Source: Escherichia phage WG01
Sequence record: NC_031928.1
DNA: 64,000 nt
Strand: one strand, 5' to 3'
Shown: positions 20,710-29,815 of the stretch, piece after piece
Layout of the letters: each line of letters starts with the position of its first letter
Numbering within the stretch: the stretch's first letter is position 1
The notes under the pieces: model-generated
Told to the model about the DNA's origin: nothing
Database searches by the model: none
The model's input: only the letters and a program-made list of their open reading frames with translations
Translations under genes and position numbers: made by a program

Positions 20710-21874
20710 CTAAATCCATCTCTTCTAAATCGCTTTCGATGTCAGCGGCGCTTTGGGTATTTCCGCCTAATTTAACAGCAACGTTCTTAGAGACACGAGA
20801 GTTAATAAGGTCATTTACCGCATCGTCAACTTCTTTAATAGAATTAATTGCACCAAGCTTATACTTATTCTCGATTGCTTCACGGAACGGAGCATGTTTA
20901 AACAGTGGTCCCCAGAACTCAACACAATCGGTAGCTTTAGCACGCCATGCTTTTTCTTCTTGAACCATTTCACCTGTGGTTTCGTCAAGGAATGCACGAT
21001 TATACCAACCAGCTTTAGGTTTCACGACAAAGCCGATATCAGTAGCCATTTCAAGCAATCCACTGAATGGGTCGATACCACCTTCGAAGTTCACTGTAAT
21101 CGGGAACGTTGATTTCTCTTTAACCGTACGAGATTTCTCGGCCTTCAGTGTGAAGTCATAACCAGTGAGCTCAGTACCATCTTTAACCTGACGTTTAGAG
21201 ATAAAGAACACGGTAGAAGCAGAGTACAGAATACCAGTACCACCACCCATAATCTCTTTAGGGTACATTCCACCAATTTCCATAGCCGTGTGGTTAATTG
21301 CTACACAAGGGATATCTTTGATAGTCAGATAAGGTGTTACGATACGGAACAGAGATTTCAGTGACTTAGCACGGGTCATATCACCTACAACTTTCTCGTT
21401 CAAAGCATCTTCGGTTTCTTTCTTAGAAGCAGTGTTACCAATGGAGTCGATAAAGATAATAACCTTTTCGCCACGAGTAATTTCTTCTAACTGGTTGGTC
21501 ATATCAACTTTAAGCTGTTCGACTGACTGGATTGGTGTATGAACCACACGTTCCAAATCAACACCCATCGAACGGAAATAAGATTCTGAAGCACCAAACT
21601 CAGAGTCATAGAACAAACAAATTGCGTCTGGATATTTCTTCATATATGCCGCAACCATGGTAAGTCCAAACAACGTTTTAAAGTGTTTAGATGGAGCAGC
21701 AAAGATTGTCAAACCTGATTGTAAGCCTGCATTCAACGCACCGCCTAATGCAATATTCAGCATAGGGATACGAGTAGGAACTTCGTCACGACCATTAAAC
21801 AATTTAGATTTGGTCAGGTCGGCGGTCATTTTAGAAGTAGAAGCTTTAATCAAACGGGATTTTAAATCAGACAT
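20702..21874 (-). CDS. uvsX: UvsX recombinase (RecA-like)
   Basis: 390 aa; RecA-fold Walker A region around GLQSGLTIFAAPSKHFKT; length as T4 UvsX. Confidence 0.9.
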   Translation of the reverse strand: MSDLKSRLIKASTSKMTADLTKSKLFNGRDEVPTRIPMLNIALGGALNAGLQSGLTIFAAPSKHFKTLFGLTMVAAYMKKYPDAICLFYDSEFGASESYFRSMGVDLERVVHTPIQSVEQLKVDMTNQLEEITRGEKVIIFIDSIGNTASKKETEDALNEKVVGDMTRAKSLKSLFRIVTPYLTIKDIPCVAINHTAMEIGGMYPKEIMGGGTGILYSASTVFFISKRQVKDGTELTGYDFTLKAEKSRTVKEKSTFPITVNFEGGIDPFSGLLEMATDIGFVVKPKAGWYNRAFLDETTGEMVQEEKAWRAKATDCVEFWGPLFKHAPFREAIENKYKLGAINSIKEVDDAVNDLINSRVSKNVAVKLGGNTQSAADIESDLEEMDLDD

Positions 21875-21951
21875 TATATTTTTCCATAGGCATCATTATA
21901 TTTTACTCACGTTTTAAGATAGGGTAATTATATCACTTCACATTTACAGCG

Positions 21952-22845
21952 TTAAAGGACCACGTCCTCATAACTTGGCATTTCGTGCTCAGAATGGATG
22001 TGGGCACCGAAATAAATGAATTCAGCCAGACCAGGATGGAATACTAAACTGGGATTCTCATGATAAATGATATGAGGTCTTGATTTCAGAATCTGATAAT
22101 ATTCAACCTTACTCGGTTTGAATTTAATAATCTCTACATCAGGACGATGGTCTTCACGCTTAAATGAATCATTCGGATCGGTGATATAAAGGCGAGAACC
22201 TTCAGCCGCAGCTTGGTCTACAACTCTTTCGAATTGATAGCATTTATCTGAGATACGGAATGGATGGAAAATACCATCAATTTTAATAGGCGCTAGACCT
22301 TCAGAGTAACGCTCAATTACTGCGGGATTAATTACCTTTTGGTCTACAAAAATCTTATCAGAGGACGCACCTCGTGACACCAGGACGTCTTTCTGACATT
22401 GATTCAAGACTGTAGTATAAATCGAACGTTCAACTGAACCCACGTCGGTATCAATAAACTCATCGATGTAATAACGAGGAACTTCAGGGTCCATTGTAAT
22501 GTTAAAGTTGAATTGTACAGTCTGAGTGCCATCATAACCTGTGATATCGGTTACCAATCCTGAGCAGTCATAGTATTCGATTAACGAATCAACAACGAAC
22601 TCATTTTCAGACCAAAAATGTTTACGAGTTTCATAAGCATTTTCTTTATACCAAAGCGGTACAAAATTCAGTTCAGGAAATAATTCAATGCATTCTTTGA
22701 TATCGCTCGAATTTCTAGGATAAGCCAGATAATCACCTGGGCAAGCACGGTTTAAATGGAGTTGAAAATTACCGTCCTTAAGGACGGCATATTCACCTGT
22801 TTCGTAACTACGCATACTGAAAATAGGAACGATAAACAAACTCAT
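21952..22845 (-). CDS. orphan protein at the beta-glucosyltransferase locus; candidate hmC glycosyl(arabinosyl)transferase
   Basis: 297-aa ORF, ATGA-coupled to gene 42; occupies the position of beta-gt but does not resemble recalled T4 beta-gt; function inferred from context only. Confidence 0.6.
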   Translation of the reverse strand: MSLFIVPIFSMRSYETGEYAVLKDGNFQLHLNRACPGDYLAYPRNSSDIKECIELFPELNFVPLWYKENAYETRKHFWSENEFVVDSLIEYYDCSGLVTDITGYDGTQTVQFNFNITMDPEVPRYYIDEFIDTDVGSVERSIYTTVLNQCQKDVLVSRGASSDKIFVDQKVINPAVIERYSEGLAPIKIDGIFHPFRISDKCYQFERVVDQAAAEGSRLYITDPNDSFKREDHRPDVEIIKFKPSKVEYYQILKSRPHIIYHENPSLVFHPGLAEFIYFGAHIHSEHEMPSYEDVVL

Positions 22846-23540
22846 TTCAGGAATCCTCGAACGTAGTCAAAATCACGTTCAAATACGTGTGCACTAACCA
22901 TAGTATGGGAATACGTACCCAGACCAACACCACACTGTTCAGCAATAAAGGCCATCAGTTTACCCTGCAGATAGAAATCCAGCTGCATAACAATAGCACA
23001 GTTCTGTGAACGCATATGGGTATGTGCATAAAGACGTCCATCACGAATATAATATGTCACTGAATCAGTACATGGATATTCTAAGGATTCGTCAGAATCA
23101 AGGAGGGCTTGGTCTTGTTCTTGGAGAATTTGGAACACAACTCGTCTTGAGTTAGGCTTCTCTTTAAGCTCTTTAAGTAAGGCTGGGAGTTGGGCCACAA
23201 TTCTAGGTCCATAGAAAGTGTTGAAGTTTGCAGGCAATACGTCACTTTTCGGCTTATCAATGAACTTAGCAACATTAGGGTATTCCTTAAATGCTTCGGC
23301 GGCGTCAGTACCACCAGAAATCATAAACTTCCAGAAAGATTCGGCATAATCATAGTTGATACGATTAATACGAGGGTCGGTGAATTTATAGGTGCTTGCA
23401 TCCAGTACTTCTACCGAAGCAGAACCAATTTCATAACAACGGCCGATACGAGAATCAACTGCAAACTGTGGAGCTTCCAGGATTTCTTCGTTCATTTGCT
23501 TAAACGCGTTTTCAAAACTAACAGCGGTAATGTGTTTCAT
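22842..23540 (-). CDS. 42: dCMP hydroxymethylase (thymidylate synthase family)
   Basis: 232 aa; TS-family blocks PNSRRVVFQI, YPCTDSVTYYIRDGRL, MRSQNCAIVMQLDFY align with recalled T4 gp42 (PDSRR, CTNTVQYLIRD, MRSND). Confidence 0.75.
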   Translation of the reverse strand: MKHITAVSFENAFKQMNEEILEAPQFAVDSRIGRCYEIGSASVEVLDASTYKFTDPRINRINYDYAESFWKFMISGGTDAAEAFKEYPNVAKFIDKPKSDVLPANFNTFYGPRIVAQLPALLKELKEKPNSRRVVFQILQEQDQALLDSDESLEYPCTDSVTYYIRDGRLYAHTHMRSQNCAIVMQLDFYLQGKLMAFIAEQCGVGLGTYSHTMVSAHVFERDFDYVRGFLK

Positions 23541-24073
23541 TTATTCACCTTATTTTCAATATATTCATTCAGACGTTTTAATTCTACCATATCGACGTTA
23601 AGCAAGTTATTATGGCCGTCGTGATTTAAGATTTTAAACACGTTTTCAAAACATGTTTCATATTGCCGGATAGTTAGGTTGAACTCATCTTTGGTTAATT
23701 TAATAAGGTCATCTTCAAAGTCTTTATCCAGTGGATTACGGGTTAAAATAACCTCAATAATATTGAATTCAGATTTAAACCCTTTCCAATCTTCCAGTTC
23801 TACATAAGGGTCCATTTCACCACGAAGGAATCCAGAGTAAACAATATTACTAGGATACCCACGGTCTAAGATGTAGACAAAATTAGGGTCTAAAAACTTA
23901 TACAACGTCTCGACTAAAGCCTTGTCATTATCAGTCCCTAATGAAATGCATTTGCCATTAATCTTTTTAGGGAAATCAATAAGACGATATTTCTTATCAG
24001 ATAAAAGTGATTCAATTAAAGTAGACTTCCCGGAATTATCCGGGCCGTCGATAACAATGATTTTTGGTTTCAC
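23537..24073 (-). CDS. P-loop kinase (dNMP/thymidylate kinase-like fold)
   Basis: 178 aa; Walker A IVIDGPDNSGKST at N-terminus; first codon is GTG overlapping the upstream stop. Confidence 0.6.
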   Translation of the reverse strand: MKPKIIVIDGPDNSGKSTLIESLLSDKKYRLIDFPKKINGKCISLGTDNDKALVETLYKFLDPNFVYILDRGYPSNIVYSGFLRGEMDPYVELEDWKGFKSEFNIIEVILTRNPLDKDFEDDLIKLTKDEFNLTIRQYETCFENVFKILNHDGHNNLLNVDMVELKRLNEYIENKVNK

Positions 24074-24444
24074 GGATGATATGCCTTATAGGTTTCAAGA
24101 GTTCCTTCACGAACCATTTCTTTAAAGTGGTCAGGACGGATTGCTCGGTCATCGATGATAAAAGTATAACTCGGCTTATGTGTAAGCAGATTGTGATATT
24201 TCAATCCAATCTTTTCAAGGTTCTTAACTAATGCAGGAACTACTTCAACCAAGATTCGACCCGGGCCGCATGAAGTCATACCACGGGCAGTGAACAAGGT
24301 AATCTCGTACCCTTCATCATAAAGCTTATTAATCATGGACACCATTTCGGTGTCCGGTTTAAAGTTTTCGTAATCACGGTCATCTTGCCAGTGAGTAATG
24401 GTATTATCGATATCAAAACACAGATGCATTAAATTTTCTTCCAT
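24070..24444 (-). CDS. HAD-superfamily phosphatase
   Basis: 124 aa; HAD motif I FDIDNTIT near N-terminus; alternative start at 24429. Confidence 0.6.
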   Translation of the reverse strand: MEENLMHLCFDIDNTITHWQDDRDYENFKPDTEMVSMINKLYDEGYEITLFTARGMTSCGPGRILVEVVPALVKNLEKIGLKYHNLLTHKPSYTFIIDDRAIRPDHFKEMVREGTLETYKAYHP

Positions 24445-26102
24445 TGTTTGTGGAGTTCGGTAGAACCTGTAGGTTTATATTTTACACCAGTTTCCTGGTC
24501 AAGCAAAACCCACTTATCAGGACAACGAGTGATAATTTGAGCCGTGATAGGGTCGCGAACTTCATCAACGAATTCACCTGTGATAAGCTTACGCTTACGA
24601 GGATGCCGCTTCAGCAGCACACTCAGTTGATATAGCCCATTGTAATAAGCGCCCAGAGCTTTCAGAGGGTTATTTTTAAAGTAACCTGCCAATGCCATCC
24701 AAATAACGGCAATCCAGAGCTTGTGCTTAAATGTACACATCGGAATATCATCTAAAGGCATAACCTTTTCAATATCAACGAATACACGAGTTCCGTTACG
24801 AGTTAATCCGCCCCATAGAGGGTCAGAGTTAAATTTGTCATAACCATCGATAGAATAAAGCACCTTAGCTTCATCATAAATCGCAGGGCCTTTAGAACTA
24901 TTACCAAAATAACCACGTGGGTCGATGATTTTAATATTACCTTCGTCCGACAACATAATATTACTGTAGTGCGGGTCGCCATGAATAAGTTGGTACGGTT
25001 CTTTATGTTCAGACAGAATTTCTAAGGCGTGACGAAGAAGTTTTTCTGGGTCGCCTACCTTGAAGTCGTTAACATGGGTAATACCCTGTGGAGCAAAGCC
25101 TTCAATCAATCCGGCAATAGAAGCATTACGAATAAGGACCTTGTCCAATACTTCTTTCTTAACATCAGAATACCATTGCTCATCGGACGGATTATCGATA
25201 GTTCCACCGAACGAACGTAATGCACTAATAACCTTATAAACCATTAGGACTTTAGTTTCTTTAGACATAAACCGGTAGGCATCTGCCATGGTTCGACCAA
25301 AGATACGTTCCATTTTAATGAATTCGCCTGGAGCAAAGTCTACAATGCTAGGAACGAATTCGGAATCAATAGAATTATACCAATTGATTTCTTTAGATTG
25401 GATTTCTTTACCCAATTCGTTAGTTGGTACTTTAATAGCTAGATTCTCGGTGAACTCTAATTTATTAAATTCACGGTTAATTTCAGAATCTTCATGCGCC
25501 TTAGCCAGTTTCAGTTTGTCACCAACATCAACTACAAAGTCTAACTTACGTTCAGTCAAATGGACCATTGAATCCAGGTTGTCAGCAAGGTCTTCACCAT
25601 AATTAGAACGGTCGAAACCTGTCCAATTAGCCACCTGATACAAGCCAACTACGCCACCACCGGTACCAATTTCACGCAAGTACGGTTCTTCAAATGTAAA
25701 ACGACAGTCAGTCCCATAGGTATAACAGTAGTCGTTATCCCACTCAACTTTATGACCTTCAGGAATAATATCACACCAGTTAAACAAGACATTGTGCCCA
25801 ATGATATCTTCGGCAATGCAATCGATAGCATGAGCCGAACCATTGGCAACATCAACGTTACGAATAGTGAATTTAGGCTTATCACTATTAATCATGTTAA
25901 TGGATTTAATATAGCCTTTAACGAGGTCGTTAAATTTGCTGTGAATAACCAGAATAATTTCATCTGATTGATTACTATACAAATCATACAAATGTTTTAA
26001 TACAGTATGTTGTTTGTAGTTAACCAGTACCTTCGGGATTTCGTTGGTAATTGGATACAACCGTGAGCCAAGACCCGCGCCTAAAATAACAACCTTTTTC
26101 AT
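24429..26102 (-). CDS. bifunctional sugar-1-phosphate nucleotidyltransferase / APH-fold sugar kinase
   Basis: 557 aa from ATG 26102 (GAGGAA RBS); N-terminal NTase motif ILGAGLGSRLYPIT; C-terminal kinase motifs LIHGDPHYSNIM and IIDPRGYFG. Confidence 0.75.
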   Translation of the reverse strand: MKKVVILGAGLGSRLYPITNEIPKVLVNYKQHTVLKHLYDLYSNQSDEIILVIHSKFNDLVKGYIKSINMINSDKPKFTIRNVDVANGSAHAIDCIAEDIIGHNVLFNWCDIIPEGHKVEWDNDYCYTYGTDCRFTFEEPYLREIGTGGGVVGLYQVANWTGFDRSNYGEDLADNLDSMVHLTERKLDFVVDVGDKLKLAKAHEDSEINREFNKLEFTENLAIKVPTNELGKEIQSKEINWYNSIDSEFVPSIVDFAPGEFIKMERIFGRTMADAYRFMSKETKVLMVYKVISALRSFGGTIDNPSDEQWYSDVKKEVLDKVLIRNASIAGLIEGFAPQGITHVNDFKVGDPEKLLRHALEILSEHKEPYQLIHGDPHYSNIMLSDEGNIKIIDPRGYFGNSSKGPAIYDEAKVLYSIDGYDKFNSDPLWGGLTRNGTRVFVDIEKVMPLDDIPMCTFKHKLWIAVIWMALAGYFKNNPLKALGAYYNGLYQLSVLLKRHPRKRKLITGEFVDEVRDPITAQIITRCPDKWVLLDQETGVKYKPTGSTELHKQWKKI

Positions 26103-26162
26103 TATCTGTTCCTCAAGTGAATGTAGGTACATTATACACTATTTTTAATAAATTGGTATTGC

Positions 26163-26663
26163 TTAAATCTTATCTTTACCGATTTCAATACACTGTTCTA
26201 TTGCCGCCGGTGCTTTGGTCTTGAGCTTATCGATTTGTTTCTTATAATCACGAGCTTTACCGAAGCTCTCGGTTTCGAGCATTTCGTAATAACGAGCCTC
26301 GTGGATGGAAATCTGTAGATTGATATGGTTTACGCACATCGCATACAGTTTCTGCTTTTTGTACAAATCATCTTGACGCTTCATTTCTGCCTGGTGTTTG
26401 GCTAGTACCGCTTCACGCTTGGACTCTTGTTCACGTTGGAATTCGATTTCCCTTTGAGCATATTTTGCACAGTTATTACCACATTGATTATTGGCTCGGG
26501 TGTACACAAGTCCAGAACCTGCACGGAATTTCATTTCGCCATCGAATTGTTTCTGTTCAGCTGCGATACGAGCTTTACCAACTTCATCAGCCGAAACTGC
26601 ATCACCATATTGGACCGCGCAACCTGATAGGAGCATACTCATTGCGATAATTAACTTTTTCAT
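26163..26663 (-). CDS. putative lipoprotein with coiled-coil region
   Basis: 166 aa; signal peptide with lipobox LLSGC; GAGGA RBS. Confidence 0.55.
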   Translation of the reverse strand: MKKLIIAMSMLLSGCAVQYGDAVSADEVGKARIAAEQKQFDGEMKFRAGSGLVYTRANNQCGNNCAKYAQREIEFQREQESKREAVLAKHQAEMKRQDDLYKKQKLYAMCVNHINLQISIHEARYYEMLETESFGKARDYKKQIDKLKTKAPAAIEQCIEIGKDKI

Positions 26664-26670
26664 AATATCC

Positions 26671-26808
26671 TCAATTAAAACAGTTATACTTAATTTGTGC
26701 TATAAGAATAATCCATCCGATGATTAGTGTCGGAATCATTGGCGGAATTGCCACTGCCCAATAAATGGTAAAGGCAGTCATTATAAGAAATAAAATAATT
26801 ATTTTCAT
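26671..26808 (-). CDS. small membrane protein (45 aa)
   Basis: Hand-translated hydrophobic ORF MKIIILFLIMTAFTIYWAVAIPPMIPTLIIGWIIL...; ATGA-coupled to imm; below track cutoff. Confidence 0.35.
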   Translation of the reverse strand: MKIIILFLIMTAFTIYWAVAIPPMIPTLIIGWIILIAQIKYNCFN

Positions 26809-27041
26809 TGCTTAACAATAATGATTTGTGCGTTTGATTTACGTTCAGCGACGATAGCCCAGATTAAAGCCACTACCCAACCAATCATAGTCCATCCTAA
26901 CAGAAGGTTTAGGAAGAAAATTCCGACATTACTACGAGTGCCTCGCAGAAGAGCCAGAATCCATGGTAAAAAGTAACCGATGAACATAATAACCAGAGAA
27001 CCGAATCCTAAAACACCAGCACTAACGATTAAAGCTTCCAT
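26805..27041 (-). CDS. imm: superinfection immunity membrane protein
   Basis: 78 aa, two TM helices, LNLLLGWTMIGWVVALIWA block typical of Imm family; position next to 43. Confidence 0.6.
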   Translation of the reverse strand: MEALIVSAGVLGFGSLVIMFIGYFLPWILALLRGTRSNVGIFFLNLLLGWTMIGWVVALIWAIVAERKSNAQIIIVKQ

Positions 27042-27056
27042 TGTAATTTCCTCATG

Positions 27057-27101
27057 TAGTTGATAGGAAGGATACTACCACGTTCCTTGTGGTATGTAAA
27101 C
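27057..27101 (-). promoter_or_regulatory. early promoter cassette (imm)
   Basis: GTTGATAGGAAGGATACTACCA core, gtaaac 27096-27101. Confidence 0.5.
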
Positions 27102-27103
27102 AC

Positions 27104-29815
27104 TTAAAAGTCGAACATATCAAATAATGTTGCTTTTTTCTCGTAGTCGATTTTAGCAGACTCAGTAAAACCGGTCAGAGGCTTGATAAAGGTCTTTTGG
27201 AACAGTACGTTGTAGTCCATCCAACGGAGGACCTGGTCGCGAATCTGAACCGGGAGTTCAATACCTGACGGCCATGCCATACAAGCTTCACCGAACGGGT
27301 TGCCTTCTTTAAGTGGCAGTACATATACCTTTTCACCATCAACGATACGAGGCATAGTCAAATCACCTGCAGAAGCACGCATGTAAGCTAAGCAACCTTT
27401 GATGTGGTATGGACATTTAGAACCCGGGAATCCACCTTCATTATATTTCTCGATGTTGTTAGCACTGGATACTGCTGCAATGCTTACATAGTTGAGTTCG
27501 TTAAATTCCTTATTAAACTGTTTGAAATATTCTTGCAAAGATGCCTCGCCTTCCTGAAGCATACGACGGATACATTCCTTCAGAGCTTTCTGAACTGCTT
27601 TAGGTGTACTTGATTTCTGAGTTTCAAGGCCCATGATTTTCAAGTGCGGTTCGGCATAACGAGTACCTTCCATGTCCCAAACGTTCAGTGCATAACGTTT
27701 CTTGCCTGTCCAGAATCCACCAAGACCTTTAGAACCAAGTGGAGGACCTGCGATAGCTTCTCGGTCCATGAACATCAAGTGTTGTTTGTTGTTCATGTAT
27801 TCGCACATCTCACGGAAGCCTGCATCAATAGCTGGTTCCATACGTTCACGTGCAAATTTATCTAAGAAGTCGACCCAGTGGTTAGTATCACGGAATTTAT
27901 CTTCGCCTACTTTATTGATGATTGCATCTGCCTTAACATAAATGGAGTCAGTATCACCGTAGAGCACGAACTTCTGGTTTTCAGTCTTACACACGCTATT
28001 CAGATATTCGTTAACCTTACGTTCAATCCATTGGAGGGCCATTTGACCAAACAATGTGATTGCAGTTGCGTTCCTGAGGTCATAGTAACGGAACCATACG
28101 TTACCAAGTGCACCATAAAGGGAGTTGATAAGCAACTTACGGTTAATCTGAGCAGTGTTACCTGCAACTTCAGTGAGCTCGGCTTTCTTCAACATTTCTC
28201 TTAAAGAAGGCGCTGACAGTGCTTTAATCTGGGCTTTGATTTCGTCAGAGAAGTCAAAACGATAATCGATATCCAGTGGACTATCAACTGAGAGATTAGG
28301 ATTTTCCAATGCTTCTTTAATTAACTCGCCATTACGTTGAGCTGCAAGCATGTAACCTTTATGTTCTTTACGCTGCAAGAATACCTTTGTGATTTCTGTC
28401 GGAATCACACCTTCACGGTCTTTATAATACATCATGCCGTTAGGAGAGCAACTGTAGGTGTCGCTAGGACGCGGAGCTGTTCCGGCAATATATTCATGTA
28501 TCGGTGCGTTAGCGAATGTCCCTGCGATGGTCTCTGGGCTTATATTCACTTGTCTAATGATACTCGGGTACAGAGATGTAAGGTCGAAACTCATTACATA
28601 TTTGTAAGCGTTAGGAATCGGTTCCTTAACGAAAGCACCAGGATAAGGTTGGACCACGTGCGAACGAGCTTGTGGAATTACCTTGCCTTGTTCTTTAAGG
28701 CTATTAAAGATAATAGCGTCCCAAGTCTTAATTGGACTAAACACCGACTGAATCTGCATCTTGGCATAATAACCCATGTCCAAACTCAGAAGAATGAACT
28801 GACGCTTCATATCAATCTGCACTACACGATATACGTCGATAATGTTATAGGAAATATATCGTTGGTGGTTCGTCTCACGTAACTTGGAGATTGGGCCATC
28901 ATATTTCAACTTACCTACTTTCAATTCATATTCAGAAACATAATCCAGAGAATAAGAAGGCTGGTTGGTAAAGCTGAATTTTTTATACAGGTCGATATAA
29001 TCCAGAACAGAGATACCGAACAATGTAATGATTTCACGAGCACCGTACATGTTCTCGATAACTTTAACACGAGTTTTACGATGTGGGCTTAATCGCTTAG
29101 CAGTGTTCTCACCGAACAGATTTTTCAGACGGTTATAAACGTACGGTACGTCAAACGACTCAACGTTCCATCCAGTCAAAATCACAGGAGTTTTCTGTTG
29201 CCAGAAATTCAAGTACTCAAGCATCATTTCTTCTTCAGAATTAAACGGAAGATAAACGATTTTGTCAATGATTTCTTGTGGAACTTCGTCACCGCCTTCG
29301 TCTTGGAGTTTCTCAGCGATTTTAATCGACCACTCTTCGACAGTACCATAAGGCGAAACTAAAAGGTCGAATACATAGAATTTATCGTCAATCGAGTCGT
29401 AGTGGGTAATGGCATCGATAGGATGTTTAGCCTGAGCTGGTTCAGGGAATCCATCAGGAGATGTTACCTCGATGTCGAAGTTAGCAATACGAATCTTAGA
29501 AGAATCATATCTGATTTCTTTACGATAGGTATCAGACAAATAGGCTAATTTATAGTCGTCCATACCCAGGGCTTCGAGACCCATATCGTCCATACGTTTC
29601 ATCCATTGGGATGCATCACGCATAGAGTCGAATTCTTTCTTAACACAACCCTTACCATAGATATCAATGTATTTTACGGCTTGCTCTGGATTAGCATGCA
29701 TAAACATTGTAGGCTTGTAAGGAACTTCACGACTACGTTCGTTACCATTTTTATCGATGTAACGTTCGAGAATATTATCACCGATTTGTTCGACTGTCAA
29801 ATAGAATTCTTGCAT
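27104..29815 (-). CDS. 43: DNA polymerase (family B)
   Basis: 903 aa from ATG 29815 (AAGGAAATGAA RBS); exonuclease FDIEV and polymerase YGDTDS motifs; near-identical blocks to recalled RB69/T4 gp43. Confidence 0.95.
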   Translation of the reverse strand: MQEFYLTVEQIGDNILERYIDKNGNERSREVPYKPTMFMHANPEQAVKYIDIYGKGCVKKEFDSMRDASQWMKRMDDMGLEALGMDDYKLAYLSDTYRKEIRYDSSKIRIANFDIEVTSPDGFPEPAQAKHPIDAITHYDSIDDKFYVFDLLVSPYGTVEEWSIKIAEKLQDEGGDEVPQEIIDKIVYLPFNSEEEMMLEYLNFWQQKTPVILTGWNVESFDVPYVYNRLKNLFGENTAKRLSPHRKTRVKVIENMYGAREIITLFGISVLDYIDLYKKFSFTNQPSYSLDYVSEYELKVGKLKYDGPISKLRETNHQRYISYNIIDVYRVVQIDMKRQFILLSLDMGYYAKMQIQSVFSPIKTWDAIIFNSLKEQGKVIPQARSHVVQPYPGAFVKEPIPNAYKYVMSFDLTSLYPSIIRQVNISPETIAGTFANAPIHEYIAGTAPRPSDTYSCSPNGMMYYKDREGVIPTEITKVFLQRKEHKGYMLAAQRNGELIKEALENPNLSVDSPLDIDYRFDFSDEIKAQIKALSAPSLREMLKKAELTEVAGNTAQINRKLLINSLYGALGNVWFRYYDLRNATAITLFGQMALQWIERKVNEYLNSVCKTENQKFVLYGDTDSIYVKADAIINKVGEDKFRDTNHWVDFLDKFARERMEPAIDAGFREMCEYMNNKQHLMFMDREAIAGPPLGSKGLGGFWTGKKRYALNVWDMEGTRYAEPHLKIMGLETQKSSTPKAVQKALKECIRRMLQEGEASLQEYFKQFNKEFNELNYVSIAAVSSANNIEKYNEGGFPGSKCPYHIKGCLAYMRASAGDLTMPRIVDGEKVYVLPLKEGNPFGEACMAWPSGIELPVQIRDQVLRWMDYNVLFQKTFIKPLTGFTESAKIDYEKKATLFDMFDF

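What the first reader, a model, noticed from the sequence alone, without database searches (positions are those of the whole stretch)
24429..26102. Fusion of a sugar-1-P nucleotidyltransferase with an APH/choline-kinase-fold kinase
The N-terminus has the GxGxRL nucleotidyltransferase signature (ILGAGLGSRLYPIT); the C-terminus has the Brenner/APH catalytic motif (LIHGDPHYSNIM) and the DxG-like IIDPRGYFG. This domain order mirrors the bacterial AmgK/MurU salvage pair collapsed into one polypeptide, which implies direct conversion of a free sugar to an NDP-sugar inside the infected cell.
Basis: partly seen in the sequence, partly recalled or inferred. Interest (0 to 1): 0.7.

Follow-up and report, generated by a model that had tools for sequence, protein, structure and literature searches.

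The report
Phage UDP-arabinose synthase (AfhE-type) fusion
This gene encodes a real two-domain enzyme (sugar nucleotidyltransferase plus small-molecule kinase) that T4-like phages use to make the activated arabinose they attach to their DNA cytosines, but the enzyme family and its pathway have already been published.

Summary

The window is a Dhakavirus (T4-like coliphage; the protein is 100% identical to phage QL01's). The protein is the full-length ortholog (43% identity, E 7e-144) of the RB69 gp52:53 / HY126 protein. [quoted passage not shown]

It lies in a five-gene run with overlapping stops and starts. The partners are a HAD phosphatase (AfhF-like), a P-loop kinase, a 5-hydroxy-dCMP synthase (79% to RB69 gp48) and a DNA arabinosyltransferase.

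The AmgK/MurU comparison is right on architecture. The "free sugar" part is probably wrong. The reported route is A5P -> Ara-1,5-P2 -> (HAD) Ara-1-P -> UDP-Araf, which follows the logic of the NDP-heptose pathway.

The fusion was predicted in 2018, with a Dhakavirus homolog named, and characterised in 2025-26. Local difference: this genus lacks the phage arabinose-5-phosphate isomerase, the U32-like gene and the second arabinosyltransferase. That suggests host-supplied A5P and mono-arabinosylation. Verdict: ordinary and already known; low interest.

The parts
24429..26102 (-). AfhE-type bifunctional enzyme, 557 aa: sugar-1-P nucleotidyltransferase fused to an APH-fold anomeric kinase. Stop codon at 24429-24431.
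   Evidence: ORF. Pfam NTP_transferase and APH. PHROG 4098 over the full length, E 5.5e-269. 43% identity over the full length to the HY126 562-aa protein, E 7e-144. 41-44% to RB69 gp52 and gp53. 100% identical to QL01_45.
26111..26114 (-). GAGG ribosome-binding site, 8 nt upstream of the ATG at 26102.
   Evidence: Read directly from the sequence.
25488..26102 (-). Nucleotidyltransferase domain (aa 1-~205). It carries the GAGLGSRL motif (26058-26081), the PK motif (K24), D111 and D192/D195.
24609..25475 (-). APH/choline-kinase-fold kinase domain (aa ~210-498). It has the beta3 Lys K224, the alphaC Glu E238, the catalytic loop HGDPHYSN (24960-24983) and the Mg-binding IDPRG (24912-24926).
24432..24608 (-). 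C-terminal ~59-aa beta-rich extension (aa 499-557) of unknown role.
   Evidence: pLDDT 84-92 with four short strands. It is 54-64 aa long in the T4-like-phage homologs and absent or much shorter (0-17 aa; one sequence has 40) in most of the more distant homologs.
24070..24444 (-). HAD-family phosphatase, ortholog of AfhF / RB69 gp51. Proposed to remove the 5-phosphate from arabinose-1,5-bisphosphate. Its start overlaps the fusion's 3' end by 16 nt.
   Evidence: 62% identity to RB69 gp51. NCBIfam TIGR01689 capsule biosynthesis phosphatase, E 1.6e-14, below cutoff. Role taken from PMC13326640.
23537..24073 (-). P-loop thymidylate-kinase-like kinase, ortholog of RB69 gp45. Its role in the pathway is unknown.
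   Evidence: 37% identity to RB69 gp45. phrog_761. 4-nt overlaps with both neighbours.
22842..23540 (-). Thymidylate-synthase homolog, inferred to be 5-hydroxy-dCMP synthase. It sits in the position of T4 gene 42.
   Evidence: 79% identity to RB69 gp48. RB69 gp48 was shown experimentally to make 5hodCMP (PMC13326640). Pfam Thymidylat_synt.
21952..22845 (-). Putative first DNA arabinosyltransferase, ortholog of RB69 gp46:47. It sits in the position of T4 beta-gt.
   Evidence: 69% and 62% identity to RB69 gp47 and gp46. Role proposed in PMC13326640.

Best explanation
The gene encodes the Dhakavirus ortholog of the phage enzyme AfhE (HY126) / gp52:53 (RB69) / gp82 (DLP3). This is the sugar-activating enzyme of the pathway that decorates 5-hydroxycytosine in phage DNA with D-arabinofuranose.

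Proposed mechanism:
1. The C-terminal APH-fold kinase uses ATP to phosphorylate the anomeric hydroxyl of D-arabinose 5-phosphate, giving arabinose-1,5-bisphosphate.
2. The HAD phosphatase encoded by the overlapping downstream gene removes the 5-phosphate, giving arabinofuranose-1-phosphate.
3. The N-terminal nucleotidyltransferase condenses this with UTP to give UDP-Araf and PPi.
4. The 297-aa glycosyltransferase three genes downstream transfers arabinose onto 5-hydroxycytosine in replicated DNA. That base derives from 5hodCMP made by the adjacent thymidylate-synthase homolog.

This genus encodes no arabinose-5-phosphate isomerase, so the A5P most likely comes from host KdsD/GutQ (inference). 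With a single arabinosyltransferase, the DNA is predicted to be mono-arabinosylated (inference).

Shown here: the domain architecture, the intact catalytic residues, the orthology and the gene context. Taken from the literature on orthologs: substrate identity, order of steps and the UDP carrier. Inferred: that these apply to this 43%-identical protein.
For: Architecture and intact active sites:

Orthology:
- Collinear full-length match to the HY126 562-aa protein: 43% identity, E 7e-144. Matches to both halves of RB69 gp52:53.

Context, with every partner orthologous to the RB69 arabinosylation cluster between uvsX and DNA polymerase:
- 5hodCMP synthase 79%, HAD phosphatase 62%, arabinosyltransferase 62-69%, P-loop kinase 37%.
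- The five genes have overlapping stop and start codons.

Rosetta-stone support:
- Homologs P0068, P0074 and P0093 fuse HAD, SIS (isomerase), NTase and kinase in one ~920-aa protein.
- A jumbo-phage-like homolog has a SIS gene immediately upstream.
- Thomas 2018 reported Butyrivibrio NTase-kinase-SIS fusions.

Literature:
- AfhE is described as a dual D-arabinose-5-phosphate kinase / UDP-D-arabinose pyrophosphorylase, and AfhF as a Mg-dependent phosphatase (PMC13326640 citing He et al. 2026).
- UDP-Araf served as donor for DLP3 arabinosyltransferases in vitro.
- Dhakaviruses are listed among genera with the syntenic cluster.

No sign of changed specificity:
- Only 8 conservative hydrophobic substitutions separate the isomerase-less clade from the other 83 homologs at conserved positions.
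Against: - No chemistry has been reported for Dhakavirus DNA in any paper I could read. The assignment rests on 43% identity and synteny.
- I could not read the primary biochemical paper (He et al. 2026). I saw only its summary in PMC13326640.
- Table 1 of PMC13326640 still lists the alternative order: the phosphatase makes free arabinose and the kinase then makes Ara-1-P.
- The phage isomerase that accompanies the enzyme in 276 other phage records is absent here.
- The closest solved relatives of the N-domain by sequence profile use GTP or CTP, not UTP: HddC, LicC and GDP-mannose pyrophosphorylases. The nucleotide therefore cannot be confirmed from sequence.
- The kinase domain has no sequence-detectable solved relative.
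Confidence: 0.8

Rival explanations
1. The HAD phosphatase (or the host) yields free D-arabinose. The kinase domain phosphorylates the free sugar at C1, as AmgK or NahK do. The NTase then makes the NDP-sugar, so the fusion alone converts a free sugar into an NDP-sugar.
For: - Table 1 of PMC13326640 annotates the phosphatase as 'dephosphorylates Araf5p to Ara' and the kinase domain as 'phosphorylates Ara to Araf1p'.
- Known APH-fold anomeric kinases act on free sugars (own knowledge).
- Both routes have the same net stoichiometry: one ATP used and one Pi released (inference).
- Structural matches include glucosamine kinase and maltokinase.
Against: - The text of the same paper, following He et al., states that AfhE has D-arabinose-5-phosphate kinase activity and that AfhF dephosphorylates Ara-1,5-P2.
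- The HAD protein's best structural analogue is the heptose-1,7-bisphosphate 7-phosphatase GmhB.
- Isomerase, phosphatase, NTase and kinase are fused in one protein in some homologs. This fits a phospho-sugar pathway starting at Ru5P rather than salvage.
Confidence: 0.1
2. Same architecture but a different product in this clade. Dhakaviruses lack the arabinose-5-phosphate isomerase, so the enzyme might activate another pentose phosphate (for example ribose 5-phosphate) or use a nucleotide other than UTP. The DNA would then carry a different sugar.
For: - No isomerase in the window and none in Dhakavirus records. The isomerase is found in 276 records against 366 for the fusion, and the count differences match the 50 Dhakavirus records.
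- Only 43% identity to the characterised ortholog.
- The N-domain's nearest solved relatives by profile are GTP/CTP enzymes.
Against: - E. coli makes A5P constitutively for Kdo via KdsD, and also has GutQ (own knowledge; GutQ/KdsD isomerase activity is cited).
- The arabinosyltransferase that must recognise the donor is 62-69% identical to RB69's.
- All polar conserved residues are retained. The clade-specific changes are 8 conservative hydrophobic swaps.
Confidence: 0.06
3. A LicA/LicC-type pair: a kinase for a small alcohol such as choline, fused to a cytidylyltransferase that makes a CDP-alcohol. It would be unrelated to sugars.
Against: - The gene context is a DNA glycosylation cluster with a glycosyltransferase.
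- There are fusions with a sugar-phosphate isomerase domain.
- Biochemistry is published for the ortholog.
- RmlA, GalU, MurU and HddC match equally well or better.
Confidence: 0.02

Closest known systems
AfhE of Escherichia phage HY126 (= RB69 ORF53_52c / gp52:53; Acinetobacter phage DLP3 gp82)
   Same: - Same length, domain order and C-terminal extension.
- 43% identity end to end.
- Same neighbours: HAD phosphatase AfhF, 5hodCMP synthase and arabinosyltransferase.
- Same position between uvsX and DNA polymerase.
   Different: [quoted passage not shown] None of these was found in this window or in Dhakavirus records.
- The gene order within the cluster differs.
- The activity of this ortholog is untested.
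NDP-heptose pathway: GmhA (SIS isomerase), HldE/HddA (anomeric kinase), GmhB (HAD phosphatase), HldE C-domain/HddC (nucleotidyltransferase)
   Same: - Identical pathway logic: isomerase, then C1 kinase acting on a distally phosphorylated sugar, then distal phosphatase, then NTase (own knowledge of the pathway).
- HddC is the closest solved relative of the N-domain by profile, E 8e-12.
- GmhB is the reported structural analogue of the phosphatase.
- HldE is likewise a kinase-NTase fusion (own knowledge).
   Different: - The sugar is a pentose, not a heptose.
- The kinase here has the APH fold, not the ribokinase or GHMP fold.
- The domain order is the opposite of HldE's.
- The product feeds DNA modification, not LPS or capsule.
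AmgK / MurU (MurNAc salvage in Pseudomonas)
   Different: - They are separate proteins.
- They act on a free amino sugar and need no phosphatase step.
- Sequence relation is only at superfamily level: MurU model 24 bits against a cutoff of 370, and no AmgK hit.
LicA / LicC (choline kinase and CTP:phosphocholine cytidylyltransferase, S. pneumoniae)
   Different: The substrate is an amino alcohol, the nucleotide is CTP, and the proteins are separate.
FKP-type bifunctional sugar kinase/pyrophosphorylases (Bacteroides L-fucokinase/GDP-fucose pyrophosphorylase; Leishmania D-arabino/L-fucokinase-pyrophosphorylase AFKP80); own knowledge, not tested here
   Same: One polypeptide with an N-terminal NTase and a C-terminal anomeric kinase that yields an NDP-sugar. 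The Leishmania enzyme makes GDP-D-arabinopyranose.
   Different: - The kinase has the GHMP fold.
- The substrate is a free sugar.
- The carrier is GDP.
- There is no homology in the kinase domain.

Membership tests
AfhE / RB69 gp52:53 family (PHROG 4098) | Full-length collinear homology to the characterised or named members | tested here: met
   43% identity, E 7e-144 to the HY126 protein. 41% and 44% to RB69 gp52 and gp53. PHROG 4098 matched at positions 1-559 of 559, E 5.5e-269.
AfhE / RB69 gp52:53 family (PHROG 4098) | N-terminal sugar-1-P nucleotidyltransferase domain with GxGxRL, PK and acidic Mg-binding residues | tested here: met
AfhE / RB69 gp52:53 family (PHROG 4098) | C-terminal APH-fold kinase with the HxDxxxxN catalytic loop and a Mg-binding Asp | tested here: met
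AfhE / RB69 gp52:53 family (PHROG 4098) | Adjacent AfhF-type HAD phosphatase, within a 5hodCMP-synthase / arabinosyltransferase cluster | tested here: met
   HAD 62%, ThyA homolog 79% and glycosyltransferase 62-69% identical to the RB69 proteins. The genes overlap.
AfhE / RB69 gp52:53 family (PHROG 4098) | Phage-encoded arabinose-5-phosphate isomerase partner | tested here: not met
   tblastn with RB69 gp55 finds nothing in the window (best E 0.64). No Dhakavirus appears among the 276 phage records that have it. This is a pathway partner, not a feature of the protein itself. The host KdsD/GutQ can supply A5P (inference).
AfhE / RB69 gp52:53 family (PHROG 4098) | D-arabinose-5-phosphate 1-kinase and UDP-arabinose pyrophosphorylase activities | not testable with these tools
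   Reported for HY126 AfhE only, and seen second-hand (PMC13326640). Needs an enzyme assay.
MurU (MurNAc-1-P uridylyltransferase) | Score above the NCBIfam equivalog cutoff | tested here: not met
AmgK (anomeric MurNAc/GlcNAc kinase) | Sequence match of the kinase domain to AmgK models | tested here: not met
   No NCBIfam hit to any kinase model at E <= 0.01. The profile search of PDB finds no kinase at E <= 0.01.
Aminoglycoside phosphotransferase (antibiotic resistance) | Specific APH subfamily match and a resistance context | tested here: not met
   Only the generic Pfam APH model matches, covering aa 356-427. APH_6_hur scores 17.9 bits against a cutoff of 27. The context is DNA modification.

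The most novel reading that the evidence does not exclude
Dhakaviruses have no phage arabinose-5-phosphate isomerase, so their version of the enzyme might have shifted to another host pentose phosphate or to a free pentose. Their DNA would then carry a sugar different from the D-arabinofuranose of RB69-like phages. This would be an undescribed cytosine hypermodification in a widely used group of therapeutic coliphages.
Probability: 0.07. Interest if true: 0.5.

Novelty: already known. Interest (0 to 1): 0.17.

Why it matters
The enzyme supplies the activated sugar for arabinosyl-5-hydroxycytosine. This DNA hypermodification shields T4-like phages from restriction and CRISPR nucleases, and it also makes them targets of type IV restriction systems. 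That biology is important, but it has already been worked out in RB69, HY126, DLP3 and the Serratia and BASEL phages.

What this window adds is modest. Dhakaviruses (JS98, Bp7, IME08, QL01), which are common in phage-therapy collections and still annotated 'hypothetical protein', carry a stripped-down five-gene version without the isomerase, the U32-like gene or the extra arabinosyltransferases. This predicts dependence on the host A5P (Kdo precursor) pool and mono-arabinosylated DNA. It is useful for annotation and for predicting sensitivity to defence systems. It is not a discovery.

Tried and rejected
- I tried to read He et al. 2026 (Nat Chem Biol), the primary AfhE paper. It is not held, and term searches found no preprint. 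AfhE biochemistry is therefore cited only through PMC13326640.
- Sequence search of PDB with the single protein and with the family profile found no solved structure of the fusion. It also found no sequence-detectable relative for the kinase domain.
- NCBIfam returned nothing above curated cutoffs for any of the six proteins.
- The sigma-70 promoter and terminator scan of 21500-27300 gave no enrichment over shuffles: 18 found against 17.4 expected. It was not used.
- tblastn of RB69 gp55 (isomerase), gp50 (U32-like) and gp3 (second arabinosyltransferase) against the window gave only chance-level hits.
- Loci fetched by accession (L002, L006) were not visible to the Python sandbox. I worked around this by translating them and pasting the sequences.
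- I considered and rejected an antibiotic-resistance APH, a protein kinase and a LicA/LicC choline pathway, on context and family evidence.
- I could not inspect the kinase pocket for a 5-phosphate binding site, because model coordinates are not exposed. The invariant basic residues K321, R325, R396, K413 and K481 are candidates only.
Full report
**1. Observation**

The ORF is real and lies at the stated coordinates. The ORF listing gives 24429..26132 on the minus strand, 567 aa.
- A GAGG lies 8 nt upstream, at 26114-26111.
- The ATG at 26132 sits inside a TATAAT hexamer.
- The QL01 annotation and the RB69 and HY126 orthologs all begin at the equivalent MKK.

All numbering below refers to the 557-aa protein. 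Both domains exceed Pfam gathering thresholds: NTP_transferase 34.3 bits against 21.2, and APH 26.0 bits against 23.2.

**2. Source of the window**

The window is a T4-like coliphage of the genus Dhakavirus.
- The protein is 100% identical to Escherichia phage QL01 gp45 and 98-99.5% identical to Bp7, IME08, JS98 and JS10. All are annotated 'hypothetical protein'.
- tblastn finds the protein at near full length (at least 80% of the query covered) in 366 of 50,697 phage records. Most listed hosts are Escherichia, Acinetobacter, Klebsiella, Vibrio, Shigella and Serratia. A more distant match is a Synechococcus phage.
- In the large protein database the family has 190 hits.

**3. Structure and active sites**

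An AlphaFold2 model built on an 86-sequence alignment is confident: pLDDT 94.7, pTM 0.91.

Residues 1-~205 form a sugar-1-phosphate nucleotidyltransferase fold.
- By sequence profile the closest solved relative is HddC, the heptose-1-phosphate guanylyltransferase (E 8e-12).

Residues ~210-498 form an APH/choline-kinase fold.
- No solved kinase is detectable by sequence.

Invariant residues across the 86 homologs cover the catalytic set of both domains.
- NTase: G10, R14, L15, P23, K24, D111, D192, D195.
- Kinase: K224, E238, H374-G-D376, N381, D394-P-R-G.

Both halves therefore look catalytically competent.

A ~59-aa beta-rich C-terminal extension (aa 499-557) is present in the T4-like-phage members. 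It is absent or much shorter in most of the more distant homologs. Its role is unknown.

**4. Gene context**

Five genes run head-to-tail on the minus strand from 26102 to 21952, with overlapping stop and start codons.
- The fusion (24429-26102).
- A 124-aa HAD phosphatase, 62% identical to RB69 gp51.
- A 178-aa thymidylate-kinase-like P-loop protein, 37% identical to RB69 gp45.
- A 232-aa thymidylate-synthase homolog, 79% identical to RB69 gp48.
- A 297-aa protein, 69% and 62% identical to the two halves of RB69 gp46:47.

The block sits between DNA polymerase/imm and uvsX. This is where T4 carries gene 42 and beta-gt, and where RB69 and HY126 carry their arabinosylation cluster.

**5. What the literature says**

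- Thomas et al. 2018 (PMC6024577) showed that RB69 ORF053c and ORF052c are one 561-aa protein. They noted its NTase/phosphotransferase domains and named IME08 gp43, a Dhakavirus protein 99.3% identical to this one, as a full-length homolog. They also found Butyrivibrio fusions with a GutQ-like SIS domain and proposed a role in UDP-arabinose synthesis.
- Lee et al. 2026 (PMC13326640) showed that the base is 5-hydroxycytosine, not hydroxymethylcytosine. They showed that RB69 gp48 and DLP3 gp80 are 5hodCMP synthases, and that UDP-Araf is the donor for DLP3 arabinosyltransferases in vitro. They list Dhakaviruses among the genera with the syntenic cluster.
- Lee et al. also summarise He et al. 2026 on phage HY126. 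[quoted passage not shown] AfhF is a Mg-dependent HAD phosphatase that converts Ara-1,5-P2 to Ara-1-P.

I could not obtain He et al. itself. HY126 is in the phage collection (PP658200.1). Its 562-aa protein at the gp52:53 position is 43% identical to the window protein over the full length.

**6. Mechanism**

The best-supported reading has four steps.
1. The kinase domain converts A5P and ATP to Ara-1,5-P2.
2. The downstream HAD phosphatase yields Ara-1-P.
3. The NTase domain converts Ara-1-P and UTP to UDP-Araf.
4. The 297-aa glycosyltransferase puts arabinose on 5hoC in DNA.

The logic is that of the NDP-heptose pathway: a GmhA SIS isomerase, an HldE/HddA anomeric kinase acting on a distally phosphorylated sugar, a GmhB HAD phosphatase and an HddC nucleotidyltransferase (own knowledge). 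Two results fit this. HddC is the closest solved relative of the N-domain. GmhB is the reported structural analogue of the phosphatase.

Independent support comes from fusions found here.
- P0068, P0074 and P0093 (~920-946 aa) join HAD, SIS, NTase and kinase in a single chain.
- A homolog on a 315-kb phage-like contig has a SIS gene immediately upstream.

**7.

The architecture claim and the functional analogy with AmgK/MurU are sound. Membership in those families fails: MurU model 24 bits against a cutoff of 370, and no AmgK hit.

The inference of 'direct conversion of a free sugar' is probably wrong. The reported kinase substrate is a sugar phosphate, and a third enzyme is needed between the two domains' reactions.

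The free-sugar order cannot be excluded from sequence alone. It is still printed in Table 1 of Lee et al. and has the same net stoichiometry. I give it about 10%.

**8. What is particular to this phage**

No homolog of three RB69 genes exists in the 64-kb window:
- the arabinose-5-phosphate isomerase (gp55);
- the U32-peptidase-like protein (gp50);
- the second arabinosyltransferase (gp3).

Across the phage collection the same pattern holds.
- The isomerase occurs in 276 records and the fusion in 366. No Dhakavirus or Marfa-like Klebsiella phage appears in an evenly spaced listing of the isomerase hits. The per-genus count differences match the 50 Dhakavirus records.
- The gp3-type transferase occurs only in Mosigvirus, Acinetobacter phages and one Tegunavirus.

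I therefore infer that Dhakaviruses draw A5P from host KdsD/GutQ and mono-arabinosylate their DNA. This matches Shewanella phage Thanatos, which has a single ara-GT and whose TH1_060 is a 44%-identical homolog.

A shift in sugar specificity is unlikely. At positions conserved in the other 83 homologs, the isomerase-less clade differs only by 8 conservative hydrophobic substitutions.

**9. Verdict**

The feature is real and was correctly recognised at the domain level. It is a member of a family whose architecture was published in 2018, and whose biochemistry and pathway were published in 2025-26. Dhakavirus homologs are explicitly mentioned in that literature.

Novelty: already known. Interest: low. 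The only residual value is annotation transfer and the prediction of a minimal, host-dependent variant of the pathway.

Noticed in passing
L004 10001-12775 (P0068); also P0074 and P0093: Proteins of ~920-946 aa fuse HAD phosphatase, SIS isomerase, NTase and APH-fold kinase in one chain. The whole Ru5P-to-NDP-arabinose route would then sit in a single polypeptide. The P0068 contig is 26% GC and packed with large multi-domain glycosyltransferases (GT25, GT11, GT2). It looks like a giant virus or other AT-rich organism that uses the sugar for glycans rather than DNA.
   Followed up: partly
window 1-64000 (absence); RB69 L002 11964-12599, L002 8493-9662, L006 2520-3620: The Dhakavirus cluster lacks the phage arabinose-5-phosphate isomerase, the U32-peptidase-like gene and the gp3-type second arabinosyltransferase found in RB69 and HY126. 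Collection-wide counts indicate that the isomerase and the gp3-type transferase are absent from the whole genus. This implies host-supplied A5P and probably mono-arabinosylation.
   Followed up: yes
window 24432-24608 (-): A ~59-aa beta-rich C-terminal extension of the fusion (pLDDT 84-92) is conserved in T4-like-phage homologs. It is missing or much shorter in most jumbo-phage and other distant homologs. Its function is unknown.
   Followed up: partly
window 26163-26663 (-): A 166-aa ORF lies between the fusion and imm. It has a lipoprotein-type signal peptide (MKKLIIAMSMLLSGC). It matches phrog_1754 (unknown function) and has no Pfam or NCBIfam family. It occupies the slot where RB69 has the isomerase.
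   Followed up: no
window 23537-24073 (-): A thymidylate-kinase-like P-loop protein is conserved in the arabinosylation clusters (37% to RB69 gp45), but no role has been assigned. The gp1-type dNMP kinase already phosphorylates 5hodCMP, according to Lee et al.
   Followed up: no
window 24070-24444 (-); RefSeq records of Bp7, JS98, IME08, RB69: RefSeq labels the HAD phosphatase gene 'phosphoheptose isomerase'. The protein is a HAD-superfamily phosphatase (TIGR01689-like), so the name is a misannotation.
   Followed up: partly
window 26130-26136 (-): The mechanical ORF start at 26132 overlaps a perfect TATAAT hexamer about 30 nt upstream of the real start. This may be the -10 element of an early promoter for the five-gene block, but the consensus scan found no matching -35.
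   Followed up: partly
L005 (GCA_013565635.1, contig JACCDQ012122952.1, 315,690 bp): A homolog with an adjacent SIS gene sits on a 315-kb contig carrying UvrD helicase, gyrase/topo IV subunits and a Fapy glycosylase among many unannotated ORFs. It looks like a jumbo phage hidden in a very large, probably eukaryotic, assembly.
   Followed up: no
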